63,144 nucleotides of DNA from Thermoplasmata archaeon (GCA_003942085.1 DQIQ01000004.1:1-63144); one strand, 5' to 3'. Positions 14,844-52,693 are shown, counted from the first letter of the stretch. The notes: generated from the sequence alone by a model not told the origin. Program-made: numbers and translations.

Positions 14844-14846
14844 TTT

Positions 14847-23305: not shown

Positions 23306-23325
23306 CTTATAGACAAAATAGATCA

Positions 23326-26270: not shown

Positions 26271-26926
26271 TCCAAAGGTTTTTTTATAAGAAAAAAGGAA
26301 GTGATAGAGCCAAGCGTTTCTGATCGGACCTGATCTTTTATTTCAAAATATCGGGAAAGGTCAATCCGATCATCGAGAATTTTGCCCTGGGCATCCGTGA
26401 TGATCCGGACGATGACCCGAGTGTTTGGGCGCACATGGGTTGCGAGATGGGCAATCATCTCCGATTGTCTTTTTACTCCATATAAGACGACAATCACGTC
26501 AAACCCGTCAAAGGGGTAGGAAAACCCGTCCGCACATTCAATTTCCAGGTGATGACCCAGTGAGAACTGTTGGATGTATTCCTTGGAGGCACGGATTGCT
26601 TCTGGGTCTTTGTCGATAGCGACTACAGAAGCATTTGTTTTTTGTGCAAAAAGAACCGCGGTGGAAGGAAGTGATCCACTCCCGATAATAAGGATCCGAT
26701 CGTGTATTGATATCGAAGCCATCCTGATTTCTTCAGAGACGATTTCTTTGTACATATCAAGATACAGTTCTGAGAATATCTGCAGCTTGCTGCCTATTTT
26801 CTCCACGATGATAAACAAACGGTCCATGAGTTGTTTAAACGCGTTCGTTGGAAAGCTATTGGCAATTCGCCTGAAAAGTATAGACTGCATCAGAAGGAAG
26901 AATCGTTCCATCACATGTTTTGCCAT
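26267..26926 (-). CDS. class I SAM-dependent enzyme, nicotianamine-synthase-like signature
   Basis: 219 aa. RILIIGSGSLPSTAVLFA followed by VVAIDKDPEA. The GxGxxPxT form of motif I resembles NAS/CntL-type aminocarboxypropyl transferases rather than the usual GxGxG. Confidence 0.4.
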   Translation of the reverse strand: MAKHVMERFFLLMQSILFRRIANSFPTNAFKQLMDRLFIIVEKIGSKLQIFSELYLDMYKEIVSEEIRMASISIHDRILIIGSGSLPSTAVLFAQKTNASVVAIDKDPEAIRASKEYIQQFSLGHHLEIECADGFSYPFDGFDVIVVLYGVKRQSEMIAHLATHVRPNTRVIVRIITDAQGKILDDRIDLSRYFEIKDQVRSETLGSITSFFLIKKPLD

Positions 26927-29767: not shown

Positions 29768-30721
29768 ATGAAAAAGAATATTCTATCCATGCTTGACATT
29801 GCTGAGGAAATCGAAGAAATCATCGATCTTGGAATTAAAATGAAACATGAGGTGAAAGCAGGTAAACATTACGATGCTTTACAAGGAAAAACACTTGCCA
29901 TGATTTTTGATCGTCAATCAACAAGGACCCGGGTCTCTTTTGAGGTTGGTATGACGTTGCTAGGGGGACATGCGATCTTTCTTACCGGTGGTGAGATGGG
30001 GATAGGACAACGAGAATCCCCTGAGGATATCGCATACGTGTTATCCAGGTATGTCGATGCGATTGTGTACCGGCCAATCAACACATCCCATTTACAAGAA
30101 TTAGCTGCACATGCGACAGTACCGGTCATTAACGGACTTGACCGCGAGGAACACCCCTGCCAGATACTTGCTGACCTTATGACGATAAAAGAAAAAAAAG
30201 GTCGACTTGAAGGTCTTACCTTTACGTTTATTGGTGATGGAGACGATAATCTTGCACACTCTTACCTCTTAGGATGTACACTGACTGGAATGAATGTAAC
30301 GGTGGTCTCCCCGAAGAAATATTGGCCAAATGAGTATTATACCACACGATCAAAAGATATTGCTTGTAAGAAAAACCACACGGTGACCATTACTGAGGAT
30401 ATCAACACCATTGCACAAACCGATGTGATTGCAACCGACACTCATGTATCTTTTTGGTTCGACCATGAACGACAACAACGACGGATGGATCTCTCCAGCT
30501 ACATGGTCACATCAGAGATAATAAAGAAAGCAAAACCAGATGTGATCTTCATGCATTGTATGCCGATGTATTATGGAGAAGAAGTCGCCAAAGACGTTGC
30601 GCACGGGCAGAACTCCGTTGTTATTGACGAAGCGGAGAACCGATTATGGGTGCAAATAGCACTGCTAATCATGCTTCTACGGGAACACCCATCCGAAAAA
30701 ATGCAAGAGAAGAATCTGTAA
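29768..30721 (+). CDS. ornithine-carbamoyltransferase-family transcarbamylase with atypical second-substrate motifs
   Basis: STRTRVSFE and HPCQILAD carbamoyl-phosphate motifs are intact. The canonical DxxxSMG is replaced by DTHVSFW, and HCLPAxRGEE by HCMPMYYGEE. Confidence 0.7.
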   Translation: MKKNILSMLDIAEEIEEIIDLGIKMKHEVKAGKHYDALQGKTLAMIFDRQSTRTRVSFEVGMTLLGGHAIFLTGGEMGIGQRESPEDIAYVLSRYVDAIVYRPINTSHLQELAAHATVPVINGLDREEHPCQILADLMTIKEKKGRLEGLTFTFIGDGDDNLAHSYLLGCTLTGMNVTVVSPKKYWPNEYYTTRSKDIACKKNHTVTITEDINTIAQTDVIATDTHVSFWFDHERQQRRMDLSSYMVTSEIIKKAKPDVIFMHCMPMYYGEEVAKDVAHGQNSVVIDEAENRLWVQIALLIMLLREHPSEKMQEKNL

Positions 30722-31804
30722 TGTCACATCGATGAAAATCAATACGTAGGAGAATATCAAGAAGTTGAATCCTACTCTCCCGATCTTTTTACCCAGCTGT
30801 CTTTGTTGCTCCCCTTGTGAATGGACCAGCAGATAAAAACGAGAAATCGTGAATAACCACAGAAGGACGAAGGGGATGATGAACAGCATGGAAAGAATAG
30901 TTTGCGTATAGAGCAGGATCCCAAGAATTCCAGCGATGACGACCATGATGAACGCGACACGTGCAGTGATGCCCACCCCAAACGATGTTGCGTAGGTTCG
31001 TACCCCGAATCGTCGGTCACCTTCAGAATCGTGGATTCCTTCGACAAGATCGTGCGCGTCATCCGCAAAATAGGTAAAGGCTATGAGCAGGAGCAATGGG
31101 ATTACCTGGGAACGATGTATGGAAAGAATACCAAGGAGGGGAACCATAAAAGTCACATCTCCGTTCAGAGGGAGCGCAGACCAAAGCACAATTGCTCCAA
31201 TCAGGGGGACGACGAGCCATTGCATCGGAGTAAAAATTTCTGAATATGCAGGAAACTTGATTCGTTTCTTAAGATATCTGTTGTGGAACGCCACAAACAA
31301 CGCAGCCAAGCCAACGATGAAAAAGCACCAGGGACTGATGAGAAAAGCAAAGAGAAACGTGAGTGCCGAGAACAATAATGCGATCATGAAGAAGCGACCT
31401 GAGGTGATAGCACCTCGGGGGATAGGGCGGCTGGGGTGAACAATCCGATCGATATCGACATCGGTGATATCATTCCAGATGAGGGCGGCAAAAAAACCGC
31501 AATACTGTGTGGCGATTGCAAGGATGATTACTTTAATGATTTCCCAGGTATACAACTGAAAACCATAGAACAACAGAGGTACACAAGCAAACATCATGAA
31601 ATAACTGATGAGCTCATAAAATGGAAACGCACGCCAGTTAATAAGAAAATAAAATGGATGTTTAAACGGGGATTCTTTTGATGATTCGGTGTTTTGGGGC
31701 ATGGTCGCCACGATTTTCTTTGTAATGTAATTGAGTGAGACTAAAAAAAGTTTCTTCCTTCGCATCGGTACTATGCTGTTTTCTTCAGATAAAATGCATC
31801 CCAT
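30677..31804 (-). CDS. UbiA-family polyprenyltransferase (paralog 2)
   Basis: Polytopic. WNDITDVDIDRIVHPSRPIPRG and DDAHDLVEGIHDSEGDRRFG motifs. Start is uncertain (31804, 31765 or 31702). The 3' end overlaps the convergent gene by 45 nt. Confidence 0.75.
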   Translation of the reverse strand: MGCILSEENSIVPMRRKKLFLVSLNYITKKIVATMPQNTESSKESPFKHPFYFLINWRAFPFYELISYFMMFACVPLLFYGFQLYTWEIIKVIILAIATQYCGFFAALIWNDITDVDIDRIVHPSRPIPRGAITSGRFFMIALLFSALTFLFAFLISPWCFFIVGLAALFVAFHNRYLKKRIKFPAYSEIFTPMQWLVVPLIGAIVLWSALPLNGDVTFMVPLLGILSIHRSQVIPLLLLIAFTYFADDAHDLVEGIHDSEGDRRFGVRTYATSFGVGITARVAFIMVVIAGILGILLYTQTILSMLFIIPFVLLWLFTISRFYLLVHSQGEQQRQLGKKIGRVGFNFLIFSYVLIFIDVTLQILLLHFFGWVFP

Positions 31805-32403
31805 GCGATTGGTGCTATCAGGAGGAATGAATCATGGTGCATCTGTTTAAGGATGACGATGGAGGGGTATTTGTCGATGCACCGGCAGATGTCTTTGGAA
31901 GCGACGTGTAACTCGCGAACGATGATGATGGTATTCGGTTTTGCCGTCGTAAAGATATGCTCCAGGATACTAGCCTTGGGGTACGAACAGGTTGACACAA
32001 TGATGACATCGAAGGGTTTAACAGGATATGAGGATCCATCACCTTCGTAAATATTCACTTTTTTTTCCAATCCTTTTTTTTTCAGGACATCCCGTGCTTG
32101 CCGTACCGCATCCGGGTCCTTATCGATTCCCACGATCTTTACTTTTCCAAGAGAAGCAAGCTCAATCACCGTGAGAGGGTACGGCCCACAGCCGATGTGC
32201 AGAATTTTACTGTTTTCAGAAATGCCAACAGACTCATATTCAGATTTATATTCAGTTGCGATCGCTTTATTATAATGTTCTGCGATTCTTTGATTTTTAT
32301 AGGACCACACATCCATGATATGCCAAAAATAATTCGAAATGCCTTTAATAGGCCAGACGAAGAATCTTTCTATGATCGGTTGTTTTTCTCCCCGTTGTCG
32401 CAT
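31771..32403 (-). CDS. class I SAM-dependent enzyme, nicotianamine-synthase-like signature (second copy)
   Basis: 210 aa with ILHIGCGPYPLTVIELA then IVGIDKDPDA. Same GxGxxPxT variant as 26267-26926 and directly upstream of a UbiA gene. Confidence 0.4.
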   Translation of the reverse strand: MRQRGEKQPIIERFFVWPIKGISNYFWHIMDVWSYKNQRIAEHYNKAIATEYKSEYESVGISENSKILHIGCGPYPLTVIELASLGKVKIVGIDKDPDAVRQARDVLKKKGLEKKVNIYEGDGSSYPVKPFDVIIVSTCSYPKASILEHIFTTAKPNTIIIVRELHVASKDICRCIDKYPSIVILKQMHHDSFLLIAPIAWDAFYLKKTA

Positions 32404-33395: not shown

Positions 33396-33737
33396 ACATA
33401 TGTAAATCTATTGTCAATTTAAATGTTTTTGCCCTCTTTTTTATTTAATTATTGAAATATGTAAATTATTTTCATGAAAAAAAGGTCAATTGACTTAATT
33501 TTTCGACAAAGAATATATTAATTATATTTACACCAGTATTATCTCATGACAGAAATCTGTTCAAGATGTCCAATCCCAAATCTGATGCATAGAAATTGCT
33601 GCGAATGTAATTTAATAAAAATACGATACTATGAAACTGATTAGGGCACGATGCAAACTATACAACTACATTTTCTTTTAATAAAAAATAGTACCATGAA
33701 CAATAAAGATCATAAAAAATAAAAAAAAAGAAGGATA

Positions 33738-33923
33738 TTACTTCTTTTTCAGATAGGGAAGGCCGGTTCGTTTGTTGACACCAACGGCATATCCCGGCGG
33801 TAATTCACAGGGTGTTCCACTTTTTGGTGATCGTTTACTAAAGAAATAAATCGTTTGCTTCCGTCCGCCTTTGAGCGTGACATCCCTCTTATATAACGTC
33901 CATCCTTCGTATATATATGGCAT
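33738..33923 (-). CDS. small basic hypothetical protein
   Basis: 61-aa ORF in the AT-rich islet with reasonable coding character. No family assigned. Confidence 0.4.
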   Translation of the reverse strand: MPYIYEGWTLYKRDVTLKGGRKQTIYFFSKRSPKSGTPCELPPGYAVGVNKRTGLPYLKKK

Positions 33924-34001
33924 AATTCGTTCCTCGGAACACGAATCATATAAGGACGATTTAAAGTTTCTCTACGCATCTCCAGAAAAAAACTAAGGGG
34001 T

Positions 34002-34403
34002 TTAGTGTTGTTGGATGGGTTGCAAAATGAGCTTGTTTTGATGTTTTTGAAAGATGATTTCATGATCCTCGAAAATCGGGTTTCTCCCGAGAAGAACAGG
34101 CAGGTCGTTACGATCGGACACATGGATTTCAAGGTTTTCGTAGGTGTACTTCCGGTCCTCATCATAGATAACCATGGTCAGGACTGATTTGAAAAGAGAT
34201 GTTTCCCCCGCCGCGGTATCGACACACCCTGCTTTTTCCAGCTTGAGTTTTAGATATTTGGCAATCGCATGAGGGATAACAATAAAATCTCCACCAGAAT
34301 CAAGCAGGGCATCAATCATGGGGGTCTCTCGTTCTTTAGAGAGAAACTTGATAGGAATTAACGGATAGTTCTTGTATTCGAAGACAAAGGGTGTTTCTTG
34401 CAT
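34002..34403 (-). CDS. retropepsin-like aspartic protease
   Basis: 133 aa with DALLDSGGDFIVIP (D-S/T-G active site) and LLGRNPIF flap-like motif. Confidence 0.6.
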   Translation of the reverse strand: MQETPFVFEYKNYPLIPIKFLSKERETPMIDALLDSGGDFIVIPHAIAKYLKLKLEKAGCVDTAAGETSLFKSVLTMVIYDEDRKYTYENLEIHVSDRNDLPVLLGRNPIFEDHEIIFQKHQNKLILQPIQQH

Positions 34404-34411
34404 GATTCTAT

Positions 34412-34603
34412 TTAATGTAAATGAATACTGCCAGATAATACTTTTGATATCTTGATGGTATCTTCAGGAAATTTCTGAGCAGGGTACTTCTCATCGGCAG
34501 CCCTTAGCACATCCTCAAGGTTCACGCTATGGTCAACGATTTGGTCGTTGAACAACAAAATCCATTCACCCGTGTATTTTTTAAGTATCTCTTCCTGGTC
34601 CAT
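34412..34603 (-). CDS. small DUF5678-like protein (partner of the retropepsin-like protease)
   Basis: 63 aa ending 8 nt upstream of the protease gene. The GEWILLFNDQIVDHS core resembles the small proteins that commonly precede such proteases. Confidence 0.4.
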   Translation of the reverse strand: MDQEEILKKYTGEWILLFNDQIVDHSVNLEDVLRAADEKYPAQKFPEDTIKISKVLSGSIHLH

Positions 34604-34661
34604 CAGCTATCACTTACCGTAATGCGGTATATAAACTTTCGCCATTTCTAGAGGAAAAAAC

Positions 34662-34874
34662 CTATTCTTTTTCCTCGTCGGTCTTCTCAAAAGAAAGGGA
34701 GAGAATCGCCCCAAGCAGACCACCGAGGACCAAAACAATGGTGATGGAATAGATGCCGATGTCCGCCCAGACACCATAGCGAAGGCCCCAAGTAATGTAG
34801 AGAATTAGTCCTGCGATAAGGACGATGAGAGCAACGATGGTATAGGCATTGATGTTTTTCATGCTTATTTTCAT
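34662..34874 (-). CDS. small two-TM membrane protein
   Basis: 70 aa with two hydrophobic helices and an acidic C-terminal tail. Confidence 0.45.
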   Translation of the reverse strand: MKISMKNINAYTIVALIVLIAGLILYITWGLRYGVWADIGIYSITIVLVLGGLLGAILSLSFEKTDEEKE

Positions 34875-34912
34875 TTTTTTATACCTCTTTTATCATTTTT
34901 TTTTAACTTGGA

Positions 34913-35051
34913 TGGGAGCACTGGGATTTGAACCCAGATCGACGGGTCTCTTCGTAGGTCATCGCTCCAGTTATTCATCATACGTCAGATGACCCTCTTG
35001 TAATCATACCTAACTGGAGCCCGTAATGATGCCGGGTTACACCATGCTCCC
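34913..35051 (-). tRNA. tRNA-Trp (anticodon CCA) with a 66-nt intron at the canonical 37/38 position
   Basis: Minus strand: acceptor GGGAGCA/TGCTCCC. Anticodon stem ACGGG/CCCGT and loop CUCCAG|intron|A (CCA at 35015-35017). T arm CTGGG-TTCAAAT-CCCAG. Mature length 73 nt. Confidence 0.8.
34948..35013 (-). ncRNA. tRNA-Trp intron carrying a box C/D guide RNA
   Basis: Boxes: C AUGAUUA (35001-35007), D' CUGA (34985-34988), C' AUGAUGA (34975-34981), D-like AUGA (34959-34962). Both spacers are exactly 12 nt. The D spacer contains UAACUGGAGC, complementary to GCUCCAGUUA at the anticodon loop/intron junction. Confidence 0.65.
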
Positions 35052-35064
35052 ATTATGATAGGTA

Positions 35065-35169
35065 TTACTGTTTCTGTCGTCGCATCCGTTTTTCTCGTCG
35101 CATCCGTTTCTTGCGCCATTTCCAGCGCATTTTCCTTCGCTTTTTCCATACTCGAGAACTGCGTTTCAT
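35065..35169 (-). CDS. rpl41e: 50S ribosomal protein L41e (34 aa; below the ORF-track cutoff)
   Basis: Minus-strand ORF MKRSSRVWKKRRKMRWKWRKKRMRREKRMRRQKQ*. The core MRWKWRKKRMRR matches eukaryotic RPL41 (MRAKWRKKRMRRLKRKRR) and archaeal L41e. An internal ATG at 35130 would give a 21-aa form. Confidence 0.75.
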   Translation of the reverse strand: MKRSSRVWKKRRKMRWKWRKKRMRREKRMRRQKQ

Positions 35170-35241
35170 TGGATTTTCCTCTGGTTTGTCTACCTTGCCC
35201 CTAAAATAGATAGCTATATTTAACTGTTTAGGAACAAAAAG

Positions 35242-35583
35242 CTATGGTTTCTCTGCTCTGTCAAGCCACACATATTTACAGCAGGTGCAATACCAGGCAG
35301 ATGATATCCATTCTTGCTTTCCATTCACCGGGTTTTTATGGCGGAACAATCTGACAAGTTTCAGGTCACAATTTGGGCATTTCCCATCGTACGATTTCTG
35401 ATAATCCTTTCCACCGATCGGATACATCAATGTATCGGAAGCAACCGTGTAAAGGAAATTACAGTCGGTGCACAGCCAGGCAGTCGGGACCCATTTACGT
35501 TTCCCATCCAAGGTCTTGTTTTGATACAACCGGACTGCTTTTGCGCTGCATTTGGGACATTTCTTTTTTATAGGTGACACCAC
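35242..35583 (-). CDS. tandem zinc-ribbon protein (internal duplication)
   Basis: 113 aa with a GTG start. Two repeats of CPxC-x(15-25)-W..(A/S)W.CxxC (CPKCSAKAVRLY...AWLCTDC and CPNCDLKLVRLF...AWYCTCC). Confidence 0.5.
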   Translation of the reverse strand: MVSPIKKKCPKCSAKAVRLYQNKTLDGKRKWVPTAWLCTDCNFLYTVASDTLMYPIGGKDYQKSYDGKCPNCDLKLVRLFRHKNPVNGKQEWISSAWYCTCCKYVWLDRAEKP

Positions 35584-35709
35584 CTCTTATAGTATGCTTG
35601 TTCTCTCCTACCTACATCATGTGCAGGTTTAAAAGATTCTCATACAACAGATTGTTTCCTTAAAGTATACTTTTAGAAAAGTGATACAAATGAAAAAAAA
35701 TGATTTAAG

Positions 35710-35784
35710 CGGGCTTGGAGGGATTCGAACCCTCGGCCAATCGGTTAAGAGCCGATTGCTCTAGCCTAGCTGAGCTACAAGCCC
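35710..35784 (-). tRNA. tRNA-Lys (anticodon CTT)
   Basis: Minus strand: acceptor GGGCTTG/CAAGCCC. D arm GCTC-AGCTAGGCT-AGAGC. Anticodon stem ATCGG/CCGAT with loop CTCTTAA. T arm GAGGG-TTCGAAT-CCCTC. No CCA. Confidence 0.85.
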
Positions 35785-35908
35785 CCTTGATAGAAAGTAT
35801 ATGGTGTAACATTCGCTATTATTTAGGTTTGACGATGGCATCGTATCGGCTTTGACAGATGAAGTAGGTCCTGAAAAAGGAATATCCTGACCAGATAAAA
35901 CTCTGGAG

Positions 35909-37312
35909 TTACTCGTCGATTACCTTGTATCCCTTTTCAGGTTTTATAAGGGAGATGACCAGCGGTGCTGGTTTTCCCTTCTGAGAAGGAATATCCTGCA
36001 CTTCTTTGACGTTAATCTGGACACCCGGACCTGCTTTTTTCGAATGAATCTCTTTTATTTTTTCAAAAATCAAATCAATCGAAGGACCAACGGTTCGCAG
36101 GTCTTCATCGATAATGACGAGGATGTCTATCTCATGAAGTGTTTTCTGAACAATCTGAAACTGCTTGACTTTTCTGGTTTTAAGATCATTCAGGATGCTG
36201 TATAGACTAGCAAAGGATGCTGCCGGGAACAACCGACCATCAGGTAGTACCACGCTATCGCTCCTTCTCCCCTCCACACCATCCTTAAGCACCGGGGTAT
36301 GCAGACCGCAGGGACAGTCATTATCCTCGGCCAGGACTATCCAATCATCCATCCCGGTGTATCGCACGATAGGCGTCGCCTTCCCATACAGTCGCGTCAC
36401 CACGATATGACCACGTTTTCCCTTTTCCACAGGTTCCCTATCCTCATCTATTGTCTCCACATGGAAATAATCATAGTTGACATGCCAGGTTCCTTCGTCG
36501 CATTCAAAAGCGATCGGAGCTCCAAGGGATTCTACCGACTCGTAGGTATTATACATTTTACATCCAAAAGCTTCCTCGACATAACTTCTGGTGTACTGCT
36601 CAAGGACAGACCCGCCCACGACAAGGGCTTTGGGGGTGATGTGTTCTCCATAACCTTTTCGTTTATAATACGCTAATTGAAAGAACGTGGCCGGGTAGGA
36701 ATACATAAGATCAGGTTTGAATCGATCAAGTTGCGTAATAATTTCCTTCATCGGAAGAAAAGCGTTCAACATGATGCGTTTATCCTTACGGTACACCAAG
36801 GAAGCTTTGGAATAAAAAAGGTTTTCAACGGTCGAGTCAGCCATATTTGGATTAAAATTACCGATATTTGCTAAGCGGGAGGTCCTCCAATTCAAATGCA
36901 GCTGATCAAACATTCGTAAGGTCGCCCCAATCCCACCGGTGAACACAGAAAAATCAGTGTAGATGGAGACTTGTTTTCCTGTTGAACCAGAGGTTGACAC
37001 GATGCGCGTGTTCTGTTTATTATACCCGCAAGGAAGGATATCGTTCGGAAAATGCTGGACTAGGTCTGGTTTTGAAACAAAAGGGATTTTTGCCACATCT
37101 TGTATCCCGGAGACATCCTGAAGACGAAGCCCAGCAGCTTCATACTTTTGATGATAGAGGGGGACTGTTTCTGCATACCGAAATGTCCTTCGCAGCGCTT
37201 TATCTCGATATTTTTTGATTTTCTCAGAGGAATATCTTCGCACTCTTGAAGCATCAAAAAGAAAATTCTTAAGAAACGGCAGAGCGGTGCCAGGATTAAG
37301 AAACGGATTCAT
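35909..37312 (-). CDS. PaaK/coenzyme F390 synthetase-like adenylate-forming ligase (paralog 3)
   Basis: 467 aa with VPLYHQKY and STSGSTGKQVSIYTD. Colinear with 24876-26270. Confidence 0.7.
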   Translation of the reverse strand: MNPFLNPGTALPFLKNFLFDASRVRRYSSEKIKKYRDKALRRTFRYAETVPLYHQKYEAAGLRLQDVSGIQDVAKIPFVSKPDLVQHFPNDILPCGYNKQNTRIVSTSGSTGKQVSIYTDFSVFTGGIGATLRMFDQLHLNWRTSRLANIGNFNPNMADSTVENLFYSKASLVYRKDKRIMLNAFLPMKEIITQLDRFKPDLMYSYPATFFQLAYYKRKGYGEHITPKALVVGGSVLEQYTRSYVEEAFGCKMYNTYESVESLGAPIAFECDEGTWHVNYDYFHVETIDEDREPVEKGKRGHIVVTRLYGKATPIVRYTGMDDWIVLAEDNDCPCGLHTPVLKDGVEGRRSDSVVLPDGRLFPAASFASLYSILNDLKTRKVKQFQIVQKTLHEIDILVIIDEDLRTVGPSIDLIFEKIKEIHSKKAGPGVQINVKEVQDIPSQKGKPAPLVISLIKPEKGYKVIDE

Positions 37313-37361
37313 ATGTAATCAATTTCTACCCCAATGCAAATATTAATAATATATTTTCTGA

Positions 37362-39386
37362 TTGCATCAAAGCGTGAAATACGCACTGAAATGCCTGAAA
37401 TGCGGTAAGACCTATTCTGAGAATCAATATATCTGTGCCTGTGAAAACAAATGTGACGCGCTTTTAAAGACCGTCTATGAACAAAAAAAATTCACCATCG
37501 ATGAGTCTTACCAGGGGATCTGGCGATATCATCAGTGGCTGCCGATACAAAAAATAGACCAACGGCTTGTCGATTCCAGCAGCTCACCGCTTACCTATAA
37601 AAGCACTAAACTTGCGGCACATCTTGGGTTGAAGAACCTTTTCATCTGCTTAAACGCGTACCCGCATTGTCATACCGGGTCGTTTAAGGACCTTGAGGCG
37701 GAAGTGACCTTCCAGCGAGTCATGAACACATTTGACTCTGGAAAGCCCTTGGTGATGTCCTCCGATGGAAACAATGCGATAGCATTTGTGCATTATTCCA
37801 ATGTGATCCGGTACCCGATTTTCTTATTTGCAACAGAAGATGCACGTCTGAGACGGATCTGGTCGTTCTCTAAATCCAATCCCTATACCCGGCTTTTCCC
37901 CATCGAGGGTGATTACTTTGATGCAATCAACCTTGCCAATCAATTTGCCCATGTGGAAGGGTATCTTTCAGAGGGCGGTTTCCGCAATGTCGGCCGTCGA
38001 GACAGCGTCGGAACCATGATGCTAGAGGTGACTCAGCTGCTTGGTCATCTCCCTGATCATTACTTCCAGGCGCTTGGCTCAGGCCCTGGTGCTATTGCAG
38101 CCTACGAGGCTTCAGAACGGCTCATCCTTGATGGTCGGTTTGGAAAAAAGCTTCCGAAAATTCATGGTGCTCAAAACTATCCTTTTGTCCCGATGGTCGA
38201 AGCATGGGAAAACAATAGCCGGAAAATCGATGAACGGTTCCAAACCGTTTCAGCAAAGCAATTAATCGACCAAACCTTGGCGCATGTGCTGACAAACCGC
38301 TTTCCCGCGTACTCTCTCATCGGCGGCATGTATGATGTTCTCCAAGAGACCAAGGGAGAGATGTACAGCGTCACCAACGAAGAAATCGAAAAAGCTCAAT
38401 TGTTATTTGAAAAACTCGAAGGCATCAGCGTTGTTCCCGAGGCAGGCGTAACCATCGCATCATTACAACAAGCCATTCGCAAAGAAACGGTGTCACCACA
38501 GGATTACATTGTGGTGAACGTGACCGGTGGCGGCAGAAAAGAAATCAAAAGAGAACGAATCCATATTGAACCTTATAAATTTACAACGAAAAAACAACAG
38601 ATAAACCAAAGATCACTCGAAGAAAAAATACAGCATTCAAAGGAGCTCATTCAAGAGTCTCTTCAAACGTATGGGGACAAGGTCGCTGTTGCCTGCAGCT
38701 GGGGAAAGGACAGCATGGTCCTGTTGCACTTGGCACGAACCGTGAACCCAGATATCCCTATCTTTTCTGTGTTGACCATCCATAAACCAAAGGAGACCTT
38801 TGATTTTGTTGTAAAAGTTATCCAACAATACCACATCAAACCAAATATTTTCATGGTTGGAGACACGATACCTGAGGTGTTTTTGAAAAACAACATTGAA
38901 GTCACCCTGTTGCCCATGGACGAGTATCGCCTGGAGGAAGAAAAAATAAAAAAAGAGACAGGACATGAAATCTACTTCGCAGACCCTGATATCTGCTGCA
39001 AGCTTCTAAAAGTCGTTCCAGTCCGCTATGCATATACGACGCTTGGATTACGCGCTTGGTTCAGCGGGCTACGAAGCTCAGAGGGGTACACAAGGAAGTA
39101 TTTAGCTGAAATTGAAAAAATAAGTGAAAGCGAAACGAAAATCAACCCCCTGCTCAGCTGGACTGAAGAGGAGATATGGAAATATATTAAAAACAACAAA
39201 CTCCCCGCGCATCCCTGGTATAAAAAAAGATATAATGATGGACGAAAAATCCGATCGCTAGGATGTGAACCATGCACGGTCCCTATATTCGACCATGAAA
39301 GTGAACGGGATGGCCGATGGAGAAAGACCCTGAAAAAAGGAGGGGAATGCGGCATTCATACCCGTTCATCAGGTGAGAGGAAATGA
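37362..39386 (+). CDS. fusion protein: Zn-ribbon + threonine-synthase-like PLP domain + CysH-type (P)APS reductase domain
   Basis: 674 aa. N-terminal CLKCGK..CACENKC. PLP-lysine motif HTGSFKD (ThrC/cysteate-synthase type). C-terminal half has the PP-loop-like VAVACSWGKDSMVLLHL, CCKLLKV, GLRSSEG, SLGCEPCT and the terminal ECGIH redox motif. TTG start at 37362 (GTG at 37374 also possible). Confidence 0.7.
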   Translation: MHQSVKYALKCLKCGKTYSENQYICACENKCDALLKTVYEQKKFTIDESYQGIWRYHQWLPIQKIDQRLVDSSSSPLTYKSTKLAAHLGLKNLFICLNAYPHCHTGSFKDLEAEVTFQRVMNTFDSGKPLVMSSDGNNAIAFVHYSNVIRYPIFLFATEDARLRRIWSFSKSNPYTRLFPIEGDYFDAINLANQFAHVEGYLSEGGFRNVGRRDSVGTMMLEVTQLLGHLPDHYFQALGSGPGAIAAYEASERLILDGRFGKKLPKIHGAQNYPFVPMVEAWENNSRKIDERFQTVSAKQLIDQTLAHVLTNRFPAYSLIGGMYDVLQETKGEMYSVTNEEIEKAQLLFEKLEGISVVPEAGVTIASLQQAIRKETVSPQDYIVVNVTGGGRKEIKRERIHIEPYKFTTKKQQINQRSLEEKIQHSKELIQESLQTYGDKVAVACSWGKDSMVLLHLARTVNPDIPIFSVLTIHKPKETFDFVVKVIQQYHIKPNIFMVGDTIPEVFLKNNIEVTLLPMDEYRLEEEKIKKETGHEIYFADPDICCKLLKVVPVRYAYTTLGLRAWFSGLRSSEGYTRKYLAEIEKISESETKINPLLSWTEEEIWKYIKNNKLPAHPWYKKRYNDGRKIRSLGCEPCTVPIFDHESERDGRWRKTLKKGGECGIHTRSSGERK

Positions 39387-40006
39387 GAGTCGCAAAAGGG
39401 TGTTGGTCTTGGGTAGCACCCCCGCTGCTCGGCAGTGTGCTTTTTTCAGCTCTTGTCATCTGGTTTTCACCATGGTTCCTTATTGGCGCAATCCCTATGA
39501 TTTGCGTTTTGGTTTTTTTCCTGATCTTCTTCCGGGACCCGGAACGAAAGATCGGTGATGGCGTTATTGCTCCAGCCGATGGAGAAATCAGAGACATTAA
39601 AAAAGAAAAAGACCAGGTCCTCATCTCCACGTTCATGGAGGTCAACAATGTCCATGTCAACAGGATGCCTATTGCTGGACGGATCATTAAAATGACGCAT
39701 TTTCCCGGATATCATCTGAGAGCCTGGAAAAAAGAATCTGATCTGAACGAACGGGTCGTCATCACCATCGACACCTCAATAGGGCAAGTTACGGTTGTAC
39801 AGCTCGCAGGACTCATCGCGCGTCGTGTGTATCCCTATATCAAAGATGGAGACGTGCTTAAGAAAGGAGACAGAATCGGAATCATCAGACTTGGTTCACG
39901 GGTCGATGTGTATCTCCCAGCAGAAAAAATAAAATCGATAAACGTGAAAATCGGCGATCCGGTAAGAGCAGGTGAAGACACCATTGCCTTTTTGAAAGAG
40001 GAATGA
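39383..40006 (+). CDS. phosphatidylserine/archaetidylserine decarboxylase-like pyruvoyl proenzyme
   Basis: 207 aa with an N-terminal TM region and the self-cleavage-type motif RLGSRVDVYLP. ATGA overlap with the upstream fusion gene. Confidence 0.7.
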   Translation: MRVAKGCWSWVAPPLLGSVLFSALVIWFSPWFLIGAIPMICVLVFFLIFFRDPERKIGDGVIAPADGEIRDIKKEKDQVLISTFMEVNNVHVNRMPIAGRIIKMTHFPGYHLRAWKKESDLNERVVITIDTSIGQVTVVQLAGLIARRVYPYIKDGDVLKKGDRIGIIRLGSRVDVYLPAEKIKSINVKIGDPVRAGEDTIAFLKEE

Positions 40007-48243: not shown

Positions 48244-48403
48244 ACACACTAATAAAAAAAGAAGAATGGACCCTCACGACTACATCATTTTAAAGGCCAA
48301 CAGGTTTGTTTATAGAATGTTTTTAATAAATAGTTCATAAACCAATAATTGGTAAAGGAAAAAAGTCAAATAAAGAACCAAACATTATAGTCCTGTGAGA
48401 CTC

Positions 48404-49597
48404 ATGACGAAAAAAGCGGTTATTTTAGCGGCTGGCGAAGGAAAACGGCTCAGGCCGTTCACCGAGACCATGCCTAAAGTCATGCTCCCCGTTGCCAACA
48501 AACCACTACTCGAATACGTGTTTGACGCCGCCAGAAAAAGCGGAATTGAGGAAATCATCGTCGTCGTTGGGTACAAAAAAGAAGTCATCATGGAGTATTT
48601 CAAAGACTACAAAGACATCAAAATAACATACGTCATCCAAGAAAGACAACTCGGGACTGCCCATGCACTCCTTCAGGCAAAAAAACACATCAAGGATTCC
48701 TTCATTGTTCTGGCAGGGGATAACATCATTGACCCAGGCAGCATTGCAAAGCTCCTCAAAGACCAATCAGAATATTCCCTGCTCATAAAAGAACACCCGC
48801 ATCCCTCCAAATACGGGGTCGTATTTATCGAAAACCGAAACATCAGACGCATTGTTGAAAAACCAAAAGAAGATGTTGGCAAATACATCTCCACCGGAAT
48901 CTACAAACTCCCCCGCTCTGTCTTCACCGACCTTGAACACTGCTACGCGGAGGGAGTTCACGCGCTGTCATCTGTCATCCAAACCCTGGTAGACAAAGGA
49001 AAACATATCAACACCATTCTAGCAAAATCATGGATGGACATAGTATATCCCTGGGACCTCATCACTGTCAACGAAGCAATGATTCAGACGACAAGTGAAT
49101 CCACCAGCGGCGTCATCGAAAAAAACGTTACGATAAAAGGCAGGGTATCCATTGGAAAAGATACGAAAATCTACGCAGGCTGCTACATCGTCGGTCCAGT
49201 GATCATCGGGGATAACTGCGAAATAGGACCCCATGCGTGCATCTTCCCATCCACCAGCATCGGCAAAAACACTGTGATTCATCCGTTCAGCGAAATAAGA
49301 AGCAGCATTATTATGGATGATGTTCACATCGCATCAAGTTCACATATCTCCCAGTCCATCATCGGCAAAGGATGCATCATCGGGGATAACTTCTCGACAA
49401 TAACAGGGAAAACGATGATAGAAATCGACGATGAGATCAAGAAACTAGAAACACCGATAGGAGCCATGGTCGGAGAAGACTGCATCATCGAAAGCCACGT
49501 CGTGGTTGACCCTGGAAAGATCATCGGCAGAAAATGCAGGATTTCCCCCATGAAACATATCATAAAAAATATCCCAAGTGAAAGTAAAGTGATGTAA
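48404..49597 (+). CDS. bifunctional sugar-1-phosphate nucleotidylyltransferase / acetyltransferase (archaeal GlmU-like), copy 1
   Basis: AVILAAGEGKRLRPFT N-terminal NTP-transferase motif and a C-terminal left-handed beta-helix with hexapeptide repeats. Confidence 0.75.
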   Translation: MTKKAVILAAGEGKRLRPFTETMPKVMLPVANKPLLEYVFDAARKSGIEEIIVVVGYKKEVIMEYFKDYKDIKITYVIQERQLGTAHALLQAKKHIKDSFIVLAGDNIIDPGSIAKLLKDQSEYSLLIKEHPHPSKYGVVFIENRNIRRIVEKPKEDVGKYISTGIYKLPRSVFTDLEHCYAEGVHALSSVIQTLVDKGKHINTILAKSWMDIVYPWDLITVNEAMIQTTSESTSGVIEKNVTIKGRVSIGKDTKIYAGCYIVGPVIIGDNCEIGPHACIFPSTSIGKNTVIHPFSEIRSSIIMDDVHIASSSHISQSIIGKGCIIGDNFSTITGKTMIEIDDEIKKLETPIGAMVGEDCIIESHVVVDPGKIIGRKCRISPMKHIIKNIPSESKVM

Positions 49598-49598
49598 C

Positions 49599-51413
49599 GT
49601 GTGCGGAATCATAGGTTATGCAGGTTTTCGTGACGCGCGGACCGTCTTACTCGATTCATTAAAACGACTTGATTACCGGGGGTACGATTCAGCGGGCGTC
49701 GCCATCATCGATAAGAAACTAAAAGTCTACAAGGAAGTAGGCGAGATAGCAAACGTAGAAAAAAAAATCCCGCTGCTCAAAGGAACCACCGGGATCGGTC
49801 ACACTCGATGGGCGACCCATGGGGGTGTTACCAAAGAAAACGCTCATCCGCACCTTAGTTGTGATAAAAAAATCGCAATCGTCCATAATGGGATCATCGA
49901 AAACTTCAGCACACTCAAAGAAGACTTAAAAAAGAAGGGACATAAATTCATCTCCCAAACAGACACAGAGGTCATTGCGCATCTCATTGACGAACTCTAC
50001 AAAGGAAACCTCGAGGATGCAGTTGCCGCTACCGTAAAAAAGATCCAAGGATCCTATTCAATTGTTGCCATCAGTCAAGATGAACCTGGGAAAGTCGTTG
50101 GAATCCGAAAAGAAAGCCCGCTGGTCATCGGCGTGGGAGACAGCGAAAACTTCCTTGGTTCAGACATCACCGCGTTTCTCAAATACACCAATCGTGTGAT
50201 GTTCCTCAACGATGGGGAACTCTGTGTCATAACACCAGACGCCATCAGGGTGTATGACAAGAACAAGAAAATGATCAAAAAGAAAGAAGACCTCATCACT
50301 TGGGATATAAAAGACGCGGAGAAATCAGGCTTCCCTCATTTCATGCTCAAAGAAATCTATGACCAACCAGACACGGTCCATCACGTCCTCAGAGGGCGCA
50401 TCTCAGAAATCGAAGAAACAATCACGTTCCCTGATCGTGTTGAAAAGCTCCTCAGTCCTGAAATTGCTTCTATTCACATCGTTGCCTGCGGTACTTCATT
50501 TTATGCTGGTATGATCGGGAAATACCTCATCGAACAGCACACCAATATACCAGTGTTCACAGAGCTAGCCTCAGAGTACCGATATTTCGGGACACGAAAC
50601 GAGTCCTCACTGGTCATCGCGATCACCCAGTCCGGTGAGACCGCCGATACCCTAGCAGCATTACGAGAAGCACAGATGTCAGGATGCAAAACACTGGTCG
50701 TGACCAACGTTATCGGCAGCACCGCAACTCGTATCTCCGATGGATACATCTTACAGCAGTCAGGCCCGGAAATCGGCGTAGCCGCAACCAAAACATTCAC
50801 CTCACAGATCATTGTCCTGTTCCTCATTGCCCTCAAAATTGCGTTGCGTCAAAAGATGCTTGGCTCCGATGAGCTGTACAACAACATCTTCCATCTGAAA
50901 GAACTCCCGCGACATGTCCGAGACGTCCTACAGCGAAGCAATGACATCATCGCTGTCGCAAAACACCTCAAGGACGCGAAATCCGTGTTTTTTATCGGCA
51001 GAGGCATCAACTATCCGCTCTCCTTAGAAGGTGCGTTGAAGCTCAAAGAAATCTCCTACATCCATGCCGAGGGGTTTGCTGCTGGTGAGCTGAAACATGG
51101 ACCGTTCGCCCTGCTGACTAAAGAAACCCCGGTCGTCGCAATCGTCACCAAAGACGAAACCTATGAAAAGATCCTTGCCAACATCGGTGAAATAAAAGCA
51201 CGAGGATCCAAAGTGATTGCCATAGCTGAAGACAAAGACACAGAAATCGAAAACCACGCTGACTATGTGCTTCGCTTCCCTGCGGGCTCTCATGTGCTGC
51301 CGTGCATCCCTATCACCGTTGTTCTCCAGTTACTCGCCTATCATGTGGCTCATCTCCGAAAATGCCCGATTGATAAACCACGGAACCTTGCAAAATCAGT
51401 AACCGTTGAGTGA
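49599..51413 (+). CDS. glmS: glutamine--fructose-6-phosphate aminotransferase (isomerizing)
   Basis: GTG start followed by CGIIGY (Ntn Cys). Two SIS domains and the terminal KSVTVE. Confidence 0.9.
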   Translation: MCGIIGYAGFRDARTVLLDSLKRLDYRGYDSAGVAIIDKKLKVYKEVGEIANVEKKIPLLKGTTGIGHTRWATHGGVTKENAHPHLSCDKKIAIVHNGIIENFSTLKEDLKKKGHKFISQTDTEVIAHLIDELYKGNLEDAVAATVKKIQGSYSIVAISQDEPGKVVGIRKESPLVIGVGDSENFLGSDITAFLKYTNRVMFLNDGELCVITPDAIRVYDKNKKMIKKKEDLITWDIKDAEKSGFPHFMLKEIYDQPDTVHHVLRGRISEIEETITFPDRVEKLLSPEIASIHIVACGTSFYAGMIGKYLIEQHTNIPVFTELASEYRYFGTRNESSLVIAITQSGETADTLAALREAQMSGCKTLVVTNVIGSTATRISDGYILQQSGPEIGVAATKTFTSQIIVLFLIALKIALRQKMLGSDELYNNIFHLKELPRHVRDVLQRSNDIIAVAKHLKDAKSVFFIGRGINYPLSLEGALKLKEISYIHAEGFAAGELKHGPFALLTKETPVVAIVTKDETYEKILANIGEIKARGSKVIAIAEDKDTEIENHADYVLRFPAGSHVLPCIPITVVLQLLAYHVAHLRKCPIDKPRNLAKSVTVE

Positions 51414-51425
51414 GGCAGAAAAACC

Positions 51426-52631: not shown

Positions 52632-52693
52632 AAAAACATAATCTTTCTCCCCAGTTATTTAATATATACCATTGCTACTATCGCTTTTTTAAT

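What the first reader, a model, noticed from the sequence alone, without database searches (positions are those of the whole stretch)
37362..40006. ThrC-like PLP domain fused to a CysH-type (P)APS reductase, translationally coupled to a PSD-like decarboxylase
A single 674-aa ORF joins three parts. The first is a Zn ribbon. The second is a threonine-synthase-fold PLP domain (HTGSFKD lysine motif). The third is a complete CysH-like domain (SWGKDS PP-loop-like motif, CCKLLKV, SLGCEPCT, C-terminal ECGIH).

CysH enzymes release sulfite. The one known ThrC homolog that consumes sulfite is cysteate synthase (O-phosphoserine + sulfite -> L-cysteate, Methanosarcinales coenzyme M route). A fusion would channel toxic sulfite directly into a sulfonated amino acid.

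The stop overlaps (ATGA at 39383-39386) the start of a membrane-anchored pyruvoyl decarboxylase of the phosphatidylserine decarboxylase type (LGSRVD). A PaaK-like ligase is divergently transcribed. This suggests a sulfonate (cysteate/taurine-like) moiety, possibly destined for a lipid head group. I am not aware of this fusion being described.
Basis: inference. Interest (0 to 1): 0.7.

Follow-up and report, generated by a model that had tools for sequence, protein, structure and literature searches.

The report
Fused sulfite-making and cysteate-making enzyme
A sediment archaeon joins, in one protein, an enzyme that should make sulfite from activated sulfate and an enzyme that should add sulfite to phosphoserine to give the sulfonated amino acid cysteate, which points to an undescribed sulfonate pathway in a very abundant, non-methanogenic group of archaea.

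Summary
One ORF (37362/37374-39386, +) encodes a Zn-ribbon + PLP domain and a C-terminal CysH-type domain. The PLP domain passes NCBI's cysteate synthase equivalog model (401 bits, cut-off 325). The CysH domain keeps the CC...CxxC Fe-S motif and the ECGIH catalytic cysteine. Its stop overlaps (ATGA) a phosphatidylserine-decarboxylase gene, and a PaaK/CapK-like ligase is divergent.

The fusion is not an artefact. It is intact in 28 of 29 related contigs, all Thermoplasmata MAGs, including published Thermoprofundales (MBG-D). Sister lineages (49-63% identity) carry the same two genes unfused but adjacent, usually with the ligase. Three also keep the decarboxylase and one adds SerC. Over 25 cysteate synthase lineages at 40-46% identity never have CysH nearby; the one examined sits next to ComDE-like and DUF39-type genes.

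Best reading: a dedicated (P)APS -> sulfite -> L-cysteate module, not coenzyme M synthesis and not general sulfur assimilation. Published Thermoprofundales MAGs have sulfate-activation genes but no sulfite reductase. AlphaFold suggests two rigid domains on a flexible tether, so proximity rather than a tunnel. The fate of cysteate is unknown; the ligase and decarboxylase suggest a sulfonated envelope component, but that is inference. I found no paper describing the fusion. Verdict: new variant of known enzymes.

The parts
37362..39386 (+). Fusion gene: cysteate synthase domain + (P)APS reductase domain. 674 aa from TTG 37362; more likely 670 aa from GTG 37374.
   Evidence: ORF. Gene-caller start at 37374. 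Pfam and NCBIfam domains. Intact in 28 of 29 related contigs.
37392..37454 (+). N-terminal Zn-ribbon cysteines (C11, C14, C25, C27, C31). This is part of the cysteate synthase family, not a separate module.
   Evidence: Positions. C11, C14 and C27 are invariant and C31 is consensus across 22 cysteate synthases. TIGR03844 covers residues 7-399.
37380..38558 (+). PLP-dependent cysteate synthase domain (residues 7-399). PLP lysine K109 lies in HTGSFKD (37671-37691). GSGPG loop at 38076-38102.
   Evidence: TIGR03844, 400.9 bits against 324.9. 9K3C cysteate synthase, E 2e-77. Foldseek TM 0.87. Invariant residues.
38562..38615 (+). Inter-domain linker (about residues 401-418), predicted disordered.
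   Evidence: AlphaFold pLDDT below 50 at residues 405-411 in 670-aa numbering. It corresponds to the stop plus the short spacer or overlap of the unfused gene pairs.
38583..39368 (+). CysH-type sulfonucleotide reductase domain (residues 408-669). Contains SWGKDS (38697-38714), the CC of the Fe-S motif (38994-38999), CEPC (39264-39275) and the catalytic ECGIH (39345-39359).
   Evidence: NF002537, 163 bits against 154. Alignment to APS reductase 2GOY. Motifs invariant in all fused and partner CysH proteins. Foldseek 2GOY, TM 0.80.
39383..40006 (+). Membrane-anchored pyruvoyl decarboxylase of the phosphatidylserine/archaetidylserine decarboxylase family. Its start overlaps the fusion's stop (ATGA). 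Motifs: FFRDPER, VHVNRMP, LGSRVD.
   Evidence: PF02666, E 2e-40. NF003685, 198 bits against 183. Motif positions and hydrophobic N-terminus. Overlap conserved. Gene kept after CysH in three unfused lineages.
35909..37312 (-). Divergently transcribed adenylate-forming ligase of the PaaK/CapK/F390-synthetase group. Substrate unknown. TSGSTGK P-loop and a C-terminal GK motif are present.
   Evidence: All NCBIfam hits are below their cut-offs. Best PDB hit is PaaK 4R1L, E 7e-27. Motifs. Found with the CS-CysH pair in 7 of 10 representative loci.
37313..37373 (.). Divergent intergenic region between the ligase and the fusion, with an AT-rich TATA-like stretch.
   Evidence: Sequence read directly. 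The promoter assignment is inference.

Best explanation
The gene encodes a bifunctional enzyme that should make L-cysteate from activated sulfate and O-phospho-L-serine.

The C-terminal domain is a thiol-dependent sulfonucleotide reductase of the iron-sulfur (APS-type, possibly APS/PAPS) kind. Its C-terminal cysteine (ECGIH, on a flexible tail) should attack APS. That would form an enzyme thiosulfonate, which a thioredoxin- or glutaredoxin-type reductant releases as sulfite.

The N-terminal domain is a PLP cysteate synthase. It should eliminate phosphate from O-phosphoserine to give an aminoacrylate and add sulfite to form L-cysteate.

The fusion tethers the sulfite producer to the sulfite consumer. 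It arose from an older adjacent gene pair. In an organism reported to lack sulfite reductase, that would keep free sulfite low and commit activated sulfate to a sulfonate rather than to sulfide.

The gene is the centre of a conserved cluster with a PaaK/CapK-like adenylating ligase and a membrane phosphatidylserine-type decarboxylase. One sister lineage also has SerC, which supplies phosphoserine. My best guess for the fate of cysteate is that the ligase conjugates it (or a derivative) to a cell-envelope molecule. It is not used for coenzyme M.

Shown by computation: domain identities, motifs, conservation of the fusion, the gene pair and the cluster. Inferred: substrates, sulfite hand-over, the reductant and everything downstream of cysteate.
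For: Domain identity:
- N-domain: TIGR03844 cysteate synthase, 400.9 bits against a cut-off of 324.9. The best ThrC model scores 103.7 against 303.
- N-domain: solved cysteate synthase 9K3C (CapA2, Alistipes finegoldii), E 2e-77 against ThrC 5e-11. AlphaFold model against 9K3C: TM 0.87, rmsd 1.8 A.
- N-domain: it shares all 59 invariant residues of 22 diverse cysteate synthases, including K109.
- C-domain: NF002537, 163 bits against 154. Best PDB hit is P. aeruginosa APS reductase 2GOY, with CC, CEPC and ECG[IL]H aligned.
- C-domain: CC-X89-CxxC-X23-ECGIH is invariant in all fused proteins, and ECG[IL]H with the same cluster cysteines recurs in all but two of the stand-alone partners.
- CC-X~80-CXXC marks the Fe-S APS reductases and is absent from PAPS reductases (PMC1175818).

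Functional coupling:
- The fusion is intact in 28 of 29 contigs.
- In six unfused lineages at 49-63% identity, the CysH gene lies immediately downstream of the cysteate synthase gene.
- In more than 25 lineages of 40-46% identity, no CysH lies within about 8 kb.

Context:
- SerC sits beside the ligase in L021 (TIGR01364, 479 bits against 443.6).
- The relatives SM1-50 and M11B2D are Thermoprofundales. The paper reports genes for sulfate -> APS -> PAPS but says CysH and CysJI are missing (PMC6461988). The 'missing' CysH is this fused domain.
- A methanogen-type locus has CS next to ComDE-like and DUF39-type genes (PMC4045070). None of these is in the window.
Against: - No enzymology exists for any member of this clade.
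- The APS-specific NCBIfam model is not reached (TIGR02055, 119 against 235), nor is the cysH subfamily model (TIGR00434, 143 against 165). Substrate choice between APS and PAPS is therefore open.
- Sulfate-activation genes (sat, cysC) are not in the window or in the neighbouring DNA read on other assemblies just beyond both ends. Their presence rests on a published statement about the order, not on this genome.
- AlphaFold does not predict a fixed inter-domain interface (pTM 0.64, disordered linker), so true channelling is unsupported.
- The use of cysteate is unknown. One bacterial-looking lineage group with 54-56% identical cysteate synthase has no CysH nearby (L028, L044, L046, L047).
Confidence: 0.75

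Rival explanations
1. The PSD-like pyruvoyl enzyme acts in the same pathway and decarboxylates cysteate, or a cysteate conjugate, to a taurine-type moiety. The ligase then attaches it to a lipid or glycan, giving a sulfonated head group or surface decoration.
For: - The decarboxylase follows CysH with overlapping or near-touching reading frames in the fused clade and in three unfused lineages whose outer flanks differ.
- In L041 the ligase has moved to the other side, yet the four genes stay together.
- The ligase accompanies the pair in 7 of 10 representative loci.
- In other lineages the pair sits inside glycan gene clusters with an AsnB-like amidoligase, glycosyltransferases and NeuB.
- The closest solved homologue of the N-domain serves bacterial sulfonolipid synthesis (PMC11211663 abstract).
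Against: - The decarboxylase passes an NCBIfam phosphatidylserine decarboxylase equivalog (198 against 183). It has the usual N-terminal membrane anchor and motifs.
- To my knowledge, no member of this family is known to act on a soluble amino acid.
- Cysteate has no hydroxyl, so it cannot be a phosphodiester head group awaiting decarboxylation (my inference).
- Three CS-CysH lineages lack the decarboxylase.
- Gene order shared within one archaeal order can be inherited rather than selected.
Confidence: 0.15
2. The fusion feeds coenzyme M biosynthesis by the Methanosarcinales-type route: cysteate -> sulfopyruvate -> sulfoacetaldehyde -> CoM.
For: - The N-domain belongs to the family first defined by that pathway (TIGR03844).
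- Where methanogens and ANME archaea get sulfite for CoM is an acknowledged open question (PMC6286981).
Against: - No ComDE, DUF39/HcyBio or mcr genes are in the 63-kb window or in the flanks of any CysH-linked locus.
- A methanogen-type locus does have them next to the synthase.
- Relatives are Thermoprofundales, described as heterotrophic or mixotrophic. Coenzyme M does not occur as a term in that paper.
Confidence: 0.04
3. The CysH domain is ordinary assimilatory sulfate reduction, with sulfite going on to sulfide and cysteine. Its attachment to the PLP enzyme has no pathway meaning.
For: - The domain is a full CysH with catalytic residues.
- Homologues at 46-50% identity are widespread as stand-alone genes in other archaea.
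Against: - Published Thermoprofundales MAGs are reported to lack sulfite reductase.
- The CysH subclade nearest to this domain is found on the same contigs as the cysteate synthases, directly downstream.
- The pairing is specific to one cysteate synthase clade.
Confidence: 0.04
4. The PLP domain uses another nucleophile or substrate. It could be a threonine synthase, an O-phosphoserine sulfhydrylase-like cysteine synthase or an S-sulfocysteine-forming enzyme. In that case the product is not cysteate.
For: Fold-type II PLP enzymes change nucleophile easily. No member of this archaeal clade has been assayed.
Against: - The equivalog HMM is above its cut-off, and all ThrC models are 3- to 20-fold below theirs.
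- The domain is much closer to the solved cysteate synthase than to any ThrC in both sequence and fold.
- Physical fusion to a sulfite-producing enzyme is what one expects if sulfite is the nucleophile.
Confidence: 0.05

Closest known systems
Cysteate synthase (EC 2.5.1.76): MA_3297-type of Methanosarcinales (TIGR03844) and CapA/CapA2 of Bacteroidota sulfonolipid synthesis (PDB 9K3C)
   Same: - Same family by equivalog HMM.
- Same PLP lysine motif and same invariant residues.
- Same fold (TM 0.87, rmsd 1.8 A).
- Expected reaction: O-phosphoserine + sulfite -> L-cysteate.
   Different: - Here the enzyme is fused, or in sister lineages adjacent, to the enzyme that should make the sulfite.
- The context lacks ComDE/DUF39, so it is not the coenzyme M route.
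- No CapB-type acyltransferase (serine-palmitoyltransferase or 8-amino-7-oxononanoate-synthase type) was seen among the adjacent genes annotated.
- The host is a non-methanogenic archaeon.
Assimilatory Fe-S APS reductase (CysH of P. aeruginosa 2GOY, M. tuberculosis; dual APS/PAPS enzyme of B. subtilis)
   Same: - PAPS_reduct fold.
- CC-X~80-CXXC cluster motif.
- C-terminal ECG[LI]H catalytic cysteine on a flexible tail.
   Different: - The nucleotide loop is SWGKDS, and there is an insertion of about 25 residues relative to 2GOY.
- It does not reach the APS-reductase subfamily cut-off.
- It is covalently joined to a sulfite-consuming enzyme.
- By published report the host order has no sulfite reductase.
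Plant APS reductase (reductase domain fused to a thioredoxin-like domain)
   Same: It is a precedent for fusing a CysH-type domain to its reaction partner (PMC1175818).
   Different: There the fused partner supplies electrons (upstream). Here it consumes the product sulfite (downstream).
Phosphatidylserine/archaetidylserine decarboxylase (PF02666; NF003685)
   Same: The neighbouring 207-aa protein has the family's membrane anchor, the FFRDP and H-x-N-R-x-P motifs and the G-S self-cleavage site. It passes one equivalog cut-off.
   Different: - It is translationally coupled to a sulfonate-forming enzyme rather than to a serine-phospholipid synthase.
- It falls below the archaeal TIGR00164 cut-off (167.5 against 230).
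- There is no PDB relative by sequence.
PaaK / CapK / F390-synthetase group of adenylate-forming enzymes
   Same: The ligase shares the fold family and the nucleotide-binding motif. The best solved relative is a Bacteroides PaaK-like protein, 4R1L.
   Different: - It scores far below every curated cut-off (for example PaaK, 99 against 700), so it is not a phenylacetate-CoA ligase.
- Its substrate is unknown.

Membership tests
Cysteate synthase (TIGR03844) | Whole-protein score above the curated equivalog cut-off, and higher than for threonine synthase models | tested here: met
   400.9 bits against a cut-off of 324.9. The best ThrC model scores 103.7 against 303, and TIGR00260 scores 43.9 against 167.
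Cysteate synthase (TIGR03844) | PLP-binding lysine and family-invariant active-site residues | tested here: met
   K109 in SFKD aligns with the SFKE lysine of 9K3C. 59 columns are invariant across 22 synthases of 40-64% identity, and the window protein shares all of them.
Cysteate synthase (TIGR03844) | Fold matches a solved cysteate synthase better than threonine synthase | tested here: met
   9K3C: E 1e-40, TM(target) 0.87, rmsd 1.8 A. The best ThrC: TM 0.76-0.78, rmsd 7-8 A. Model pLDDT is 91.5.
Cysteate synthase (TIGR03844) | Catalyses O-phosphoserine + sulfite -> L-cysteate | not testable with these tools
   Needs an enzyme assay.
Coenzyme M pathway (Methanosarcinales type) | Cysteate synthase accompanied by sulfopyruvate decarboxylase ComDE and DUF39-type genes, in an organism with alkyl-CoM reductase | tested here: not met
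   None is found in the window or in the flanks of the CysH-linked loci. They are present next to a 42%-identical synthase in L110. Only the local DNA could be tested, not the whole genome.
Assimilatory sulfonucleotide reductase (CysH) | PAPS_reduct domain with an NCBIfam equivalog score above cut-off | tested here: met
   PF01507, E 1.5e-34. NF002537, 163 bits against 154.
Assimilatory sulfonucleotide reductase (CysH) | Essential C-terminal catalytic cysteine (ECG[LI]H) | tested here: met
   ECGIH at residues 662-666 aligns with ECGLH of 2GOY. It is conserved in all but one (cut-short) homologue examined.
Fe-S APS reductase subclass | CC-X~80-CXXC iron-sulfur motif | tested here: met
   CC at 545-546 and CEPC at 635-638, a spacing of 89 residues, invariant in the fused proteins. 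Motif definition from PMC1175818.
Fe-S APS reductase subclass | Score above the TIGR02055 APS_reductase subfamily cut-off | tested here: not met
   119 bits against 235. TIGR00434 cysH scores 143 against 165.1. APS versus PAPS preference stays open.
Phosphatidylserine/archaetidylserine decarboxylase | PF02666 domain, G-S self-cleavage site, membrane anchor and a curated cut-off | tested here: met
   PF02666, E 2e-40. NF003685, 198.3 bits against 183. LGS at residues 170-172 and a hydrophobic N-terminus.
Phosphatidylserine/archaetidylserine decarboxylase | Archaeal equivalog models (TIGR00164, NF038088) | tested here: not met
   TIGR00164, 167.5 against 230. NF038088, 179.1 against 240.
Phenylacetate-CoA ligase PaaK | Equivalog score above cut-off | tested here: not met
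   NF041878, 99 against 700. TIGR02155, 87 against 646. It belongs only to the wider adenylate-forming group.
Bacteroidota capnine/sulfonolipid pathway (CapA-CapB-CapC) | Cysteate synthase together with a cysteate acyltransferase of the alpha-oxoamine synthase type | tested here: inconclusive
   No such gene was recognised near the pair. The class I/II aminotransferases in L023 match other subfamilies. Whole genomes could not be searched.

The most novel reading that the evidence does not exclude
The conserved cluster is a pathway for a so far unknown sulfonated cell-envelope molecule of Thermoprofundales (MBG-D), one of the most abundant archaeal groups in sediments. The cluster comprises the PaaK/CapK-like ligase, cysteate synthase, Fe-S (P)APS reductase and the membrane pyruvoyl decarboxylase, plus SerC in one lineage. 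One possible product is cysteate or taurine amide-linked to an ethanolamine- or serine-type archaeal lipid, or to a glycan. The pairing of CysH with cysteate synthase would then also explain why many anaerobic archaea keep 'orphan' CysH genes without a sulfite reductase: these genes make sulfite for sulfonate biosynthesis.
Probability: 0.3. Interest if true: 0.8.

Novelty: new variant of a known kind. Interest (0 to 1): 0.62.

Why it matters
Both enzyme families are well known. Their fusion, and the wider conserved gene pair, links them into a dedicated route from activated sulfate to a carbon-sulfonate.

- It gives a concrete, testable answer for one lineage to an open question: where anaerobic archaea get sulfite for sulfonate biosynthesis (raised in PMC6286981).
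- It corrects a published metabolic reconstruction. CysH was reported missing in Thermoprofundales, but it is there, fused, and annotated as 'hypothetical' or 'cysteate synthase'.
- It implies that a very abundant, uncultured, non-methanogenic sediment group makes cysteate for a purpose nobody has described.
- A naturally fused sulfite-producing and sulfite-consuming pair is also a convenient system for studying how cells handle toxic sulfite.

Tried and rejected
- Assembly or frameshift artefact: rejected. There is one uninterrupted frame in 28 of 29 independent contigs.
- Threonine synthase: rejected.
- Coenzyme M context: rejected for the local DNA.
- Search for sat, cysC, sulfite reductase or comDE in the window and in neighbouring DNA read on other assemblies just beyond its ends: nothing found. 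Whole genomes could not be searched.
- Search for a CDP-alcohol phosphatidyltransferase (serine-lipid synthase) motif in the window and 109 loci: no match with a strict pattern. This is weak negative evidence.
- Homologue search with the decarboxylase, meant to show whether it is a housekeeping copy or a specialised paralogue: the 120 listed hits were all from the same cluster-bearing lineages, so it was uninformative.
- PDB sequence search with the decarboxylase: no hit.
- Literature searches for the fusion, for CapK/taurine links and for Thermoprofundales sulfur genes: only the statements cited were found, and nothing on the fusion.
- My recollection that S. aureus type 1 capsule carries amide-linked taurine and that its locus has a PaaK-like CapK could not be verified in the library. 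I do not use it as evidence.
- AlphaFold was used to look for a fixed inter-domain interface. It gave a flexible tether instead.
- A catabolic reading (cysteate desulfonation feeding sulfite backwards into APS) was considered and dropped. CysH-type enzymes are not known to run in reverse (my knowledge).


Full report

Yes. ORF 37362-39386 (+) is 674 aa from a TTG. Gene callers on identical public contigs start at GTG 37374, giving 670 aa = P0001. An AT-rich TATA-like stretch lies about 25 nt upstream of that GTG, so 37374 is the more likely start.

- Zn-ribbon cysteines, residues 11-31
- HTGSFKD, 104-110
- SWGKDS, 446-451
- CCKLLKV, 545-551
- GCEPCT, 634-639
- ECGIH, 662-666

The stop overlaps the ATG of the next ORF (ATGA, 39383-39386). 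That ORF is a 207-aa PS_Dcarbxylase protein. A 467-aa adenylate-forming ligase is transcribed divergently from 37312.

**2. What are the two halves?**

N-terminal domain (residues 7-399):
- It scores 400.9 bits on NCBIfam TIGR03844 'cysteate synthase', an equivalog with a cut-off of 324.9. Every threonine synthase model is far below its own cut-off.
- Among solved structures, the best sequence match is 9K3C 'cysteate synthase' (E 2e-77, 264 bits). The best threonine synthase reaches 45 bits.
- An AlphaFold model (mean pLDDT 91.5) superposes on 9K3C with TM 0.87 and rmsd 1.8 A. 9K3C is CapA2 of Alistipes finegoldii, the cysteate synthase of bacterial sulfonolipid synthesis. Threonine synthases align with rmsd of 4-12 A.
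- The protein shares all 59 invariant positions of 22 cysteate synthases spanning 40-64% identity. These include the PLP lysine K109 and three of the Zn-ribbon cysteines. The Zn ribbon is therefore part of the family, not a third module.

C-terminal domain (residues 408-669):
- It is a PAPS_reduct domain (E 1.5e-34). It passes NF002537 (163 bits against 154).
- Its best solved relative is the Fe-S APS reductase of P. aeruginosa (2GOY). The CC pair, the CxxC pair and the catalytic ECG[LI]H cysteine are aligned, and Foldseek gives TM 0.80.
- The pattern CC-X89-CxxC-X23-ECGIH is invariant in all fused homologues; ECG[IL]H with the same cluster cysteines recurs in all but two of the stand-alone partner proteins.
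- According to Carroll et al., CC-X~80-CXXC ligates the 4Fe-4S cluster of APS reductases and of the dual APS/PAPS enzyme of B. subtilis. True PAPS reductases lack it (PMC1175818).
- The APS-specific subfamily HMM is not reached (119 against 235). I therefore call the domain a (P)APS reductase with an APS-type cofactor motif.

**3. Is the fusion genuine and conserved?**

- The full-length protein finds 33 clusters of fused proteins at 77-100% identity.
- Sixteen genome loci were recovered. All the close ones are from Thermoplasmata/Thermoplasmatota MAGs, among them SM1-50 and M11B2D.
- Reading through the frame, 28 of 29 contigs with enough sequence have one uninterrupted ORF. L003 has one in-frame stop and L056 a frameshift, each a single case.
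- The ATGA overlap with the decarboxylase is kept in almost all of them.
- Public annotation is 'hypothetical protein' (KYK21423.1, SM1-50) or 'cysteate synthase' (JGI).

**4. The more informative result: the gene pair is older than the fusion.**

- The closest stand-alone homologues of the C-domain (50-65% identity, about 256 aa) lie on the same contigs as the closest unfused cysteate synthases (one search compared).
- Neighbourhood look-ups show the CysH gene directly downstream of the synthase gene, separated by a few to about 30 nt or overlapping.
- I then fetched 80 metagenome loci around diverse cysteate synthases. I scored them all by tblastn and clustered them at 75% identity.

| Lineage set | Identity to window | CysH next to synthase | Decarboxylase | Ligase |
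|---|---|---|---|---|
| Fused clade | mean 86% | fused | yes | yes |
| Three lineages | 59-63% | adjacent | yes | yes |
| Three lineages | 50-55% | adjacent | no | partly (the P0071 contig is a further example with ligase) |
| One group, bacterial-looking (L028 is labelled Armatimonadota) | 54-56% | none | no | no |
| More than 25 lineages | 40-46% | none within about 8 kb | no | no |

- One of the 40-46% loci (L110) has the classical coenzyme M context: a TPP enzyme of ComDE type next to the synthase and a DUF39/HcyBio gene nearby. This matches the literature description (PMC4045070).
- The fusion is therefore a derived state of a conserved two-gene module that is specific to one archaeal clade of cysteate synthases.

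**5. The wider cluster.**

- An all-against-all comparison of the neighbours in ten representative loci finds only a few shared families:
  - the CS/CysH pair, 10 of 10 loci
  - the PaaK/CapK-like ligase, 7 of 10
  - the decarboxylase, 5 of 10
  - a NAS-like methyltransferase, 4 of 10
  - three families found in only 3 of 10 loci: two small unannotated ORFs and one group of ORFs on the opposite strand of the pair
- The outer flanks differ between the window, L021, L023/L027 and L041. In L041 the ligase lies downstream and convergent instead of upstream and divergent. The four genes have therefore stayed together through rearrangements.
- In L021 the gene next to the ligase is SerC (TIGR01364, 479 bits against 443.6). 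SerC is phosphoserine transaminase, which makes the expected amino-acid substrate.
- In L025 and L029 the pair sits among glycosyltransferases, a sulfotransferase, NeuB, UDP-glucose dehydrogenase and an AsnB-like amidoligase.

**6. Organism and physiology.**

- Zhou et al. classify SM1-50 and M11B2D as Thermoprofundales (MBG-D), which are heterotrophic or mixotrophic sediment archaea.
- They report that most MAGs have the genes for sulfate -> APS -> PAPS but that 'CysH and CysJI are missing' (PMC6461988). The paper does not mention coenzyme M.
- L010, L012 and L013 are contigs of those very MAGs and carry the fused CysH domain. CysH was therefore overlooked, not absent.
- With activated sulfate available and no sulfite reductase reported, a CysH tied to a cysteate synthase makes sense as a committed route to a sulfonate.
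- In this window, and in neighbouring DNA read on other assemblies just beyond its ends, I found no sat, cysC, sulfite reductase, comDE or mcr. Whole genomes could not be searched.

**7. Mechanism.**

Shown by computation:
- domain identities
- cofactor and catalytic motifs
- conservation of the fusion, the pair and the cluster

Inferred from the known chemistry of the two families:
- The C-terminal cysteine attacks APS (or PAPS). An enzyme thiosulfonate forms, and a dithiol reductant releases sulfite (mechanism in PMC1175818).
- The PLP domain forms an aminoacrylate from O-phosphoserine and adds sulfite to give L-cysteate.

The AlphaFold model has two confidently folded domains. The linker is disordered (residues 405-411 of the 670-aa form), the C-terminal tail has low confidence, and pTM is only 0.64. 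I therefore favour a flexible tether that raises the local sulfite concentration over a fixed tunnel. A flexible catalytic tail is also what is described for APS reductase (abstract of 10.64898/2026.09.04.749436, listed).

**8. What happens to cysteate?**

This is unknown.
- The ligase has intact adenylation motifs but falls far below every curated family threshold. Its nearest solved relative is a PaaK-like protein.
- The decarboxylase looks like an ordinary membrane phosphatidylserine/archaetidylserine decarboxylase.
- Cysteate has no hydroxyl, so it cannot itself be a phosphodiester head group waiting to be decarboxylated.
- Possibilities that fit the cluster:
  - (a) The ligase amide-links cysteate to an amine or carboxylate of a lipid or glycan. 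The amine could be the ethanolamine lipid made by the decarboxylase.
  - (b) The decarboxylase has drifted to make taurine.
  - (c) The decarboxylase is housekeeping and is co-located because both routes draw on the phosphoserine/serine pool.
- I could not discriminate between these.

**9. Novelty.**

- Both enzymes and both reactions are known.
- In the library I could search, none of the following is described: the fusion, the conserved CS-CysH pair, its cluster, or its presence in a non-methanogenic archaeal order.
- The proteins themselves are already in public databases under uninformative names.
- I rate it a new variant of a known kind, of moderate to high interest. It makes the question of the sulfite source for sulfonate biosynthesis directly testable, and it predicts an unknown sulfonated product in a very abundant sediment archaeon.

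Noticed in passing
window 34913-35051 (-): Rfam reports a tRNA match 139 nt long (43.5 bits) that ARAGORN does not call. It is probably an intron-containing archaeal tRNA.
   Followed up: partly
window 12183-17643: A GHMP kinase, a UbiD-like decarboxylase and the AcnX large and small subunits lie together. This looks like the archaeal-type mevalonate pathway (phosphomevalonate dehydratase / anhydromevalonate phosphate decarboxylase).
   Followed up: no
window 21986-26926; P0071 contig: A B12-radical SAM protein, a 439-aa protein with no family, a second PaaK-like ligase paralogue (475 aa) and a NAS-like methyltransferase lie about 11 kb upstream of the fusion. The same set lies directly beside the CS-CysH-ligase genes in the P0071 contig.
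   Followed up: partly
window 30677-32403; L021 4624-6204: A UbiA prenyltransferase plus NAS-like methyltransferase pair recurs upstream of the cluster in a lineage with only 62% identical synthase.
   Followed up: no
L003 3714-5723; L056: Two relatives have a broken fusion gene. L003 (MAG LFW-68_2) has an in-frame stop at codon 292, and L056 has a frameshift. These are either sequencing errors or pseudogenes.
   Followed up: partly
window 33400-35900; L001 7051-8391: The stretch between the ligase and the Lrp/AsnC regulator holds tRNA-Lys and small Zn-ribbon ORFs. In relative L001 a phage-type integrase sits at this spot, so it looks like a variable integration site.
   Followed up: no
window 48395-63140 and beyond the right end: There is a large glycan gene cluster: two NTP transferases, GlmS, a Wzx-like flippase, GT2, GDP-mannose dehydratase, a C-methyltransferase, DegT and Polysacc_synt_2. 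Another assembly that carries the window's DegT gene continues with two NeuB genes, a CMP-sugar synthetase and a UDP-GlcNAc 2-epimerase type gene, which suggests nonulosonic acid synthesis.
   Followed up: no
window 4447-8792 (-): Two adjacent large proteins (673 and 697 aa) each consist almost entirely of the PF09826 beta-propeller domain.
   Followed up: no
L028, L044, L046, L047: A group of cysteate synthases 54-56% identical to the window's has no CysH neighbour. L028 is labelled Armatimonadota and has Por-secretion-tail proteins nearby. This group is more similar to the window protein than some archaeal CysH-linked ones, which hints at transfer between archaea and bacteria.
   Followed up: no
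PMC6461988 versus L010, L012, L013: The published Thermoprofundales reconstruction lists CysH as missing. Contigs of two of its MAGs (M11B2D, SM1-50) encode the CysH domain fused to the cysteate synthase.
   Followed up: yes
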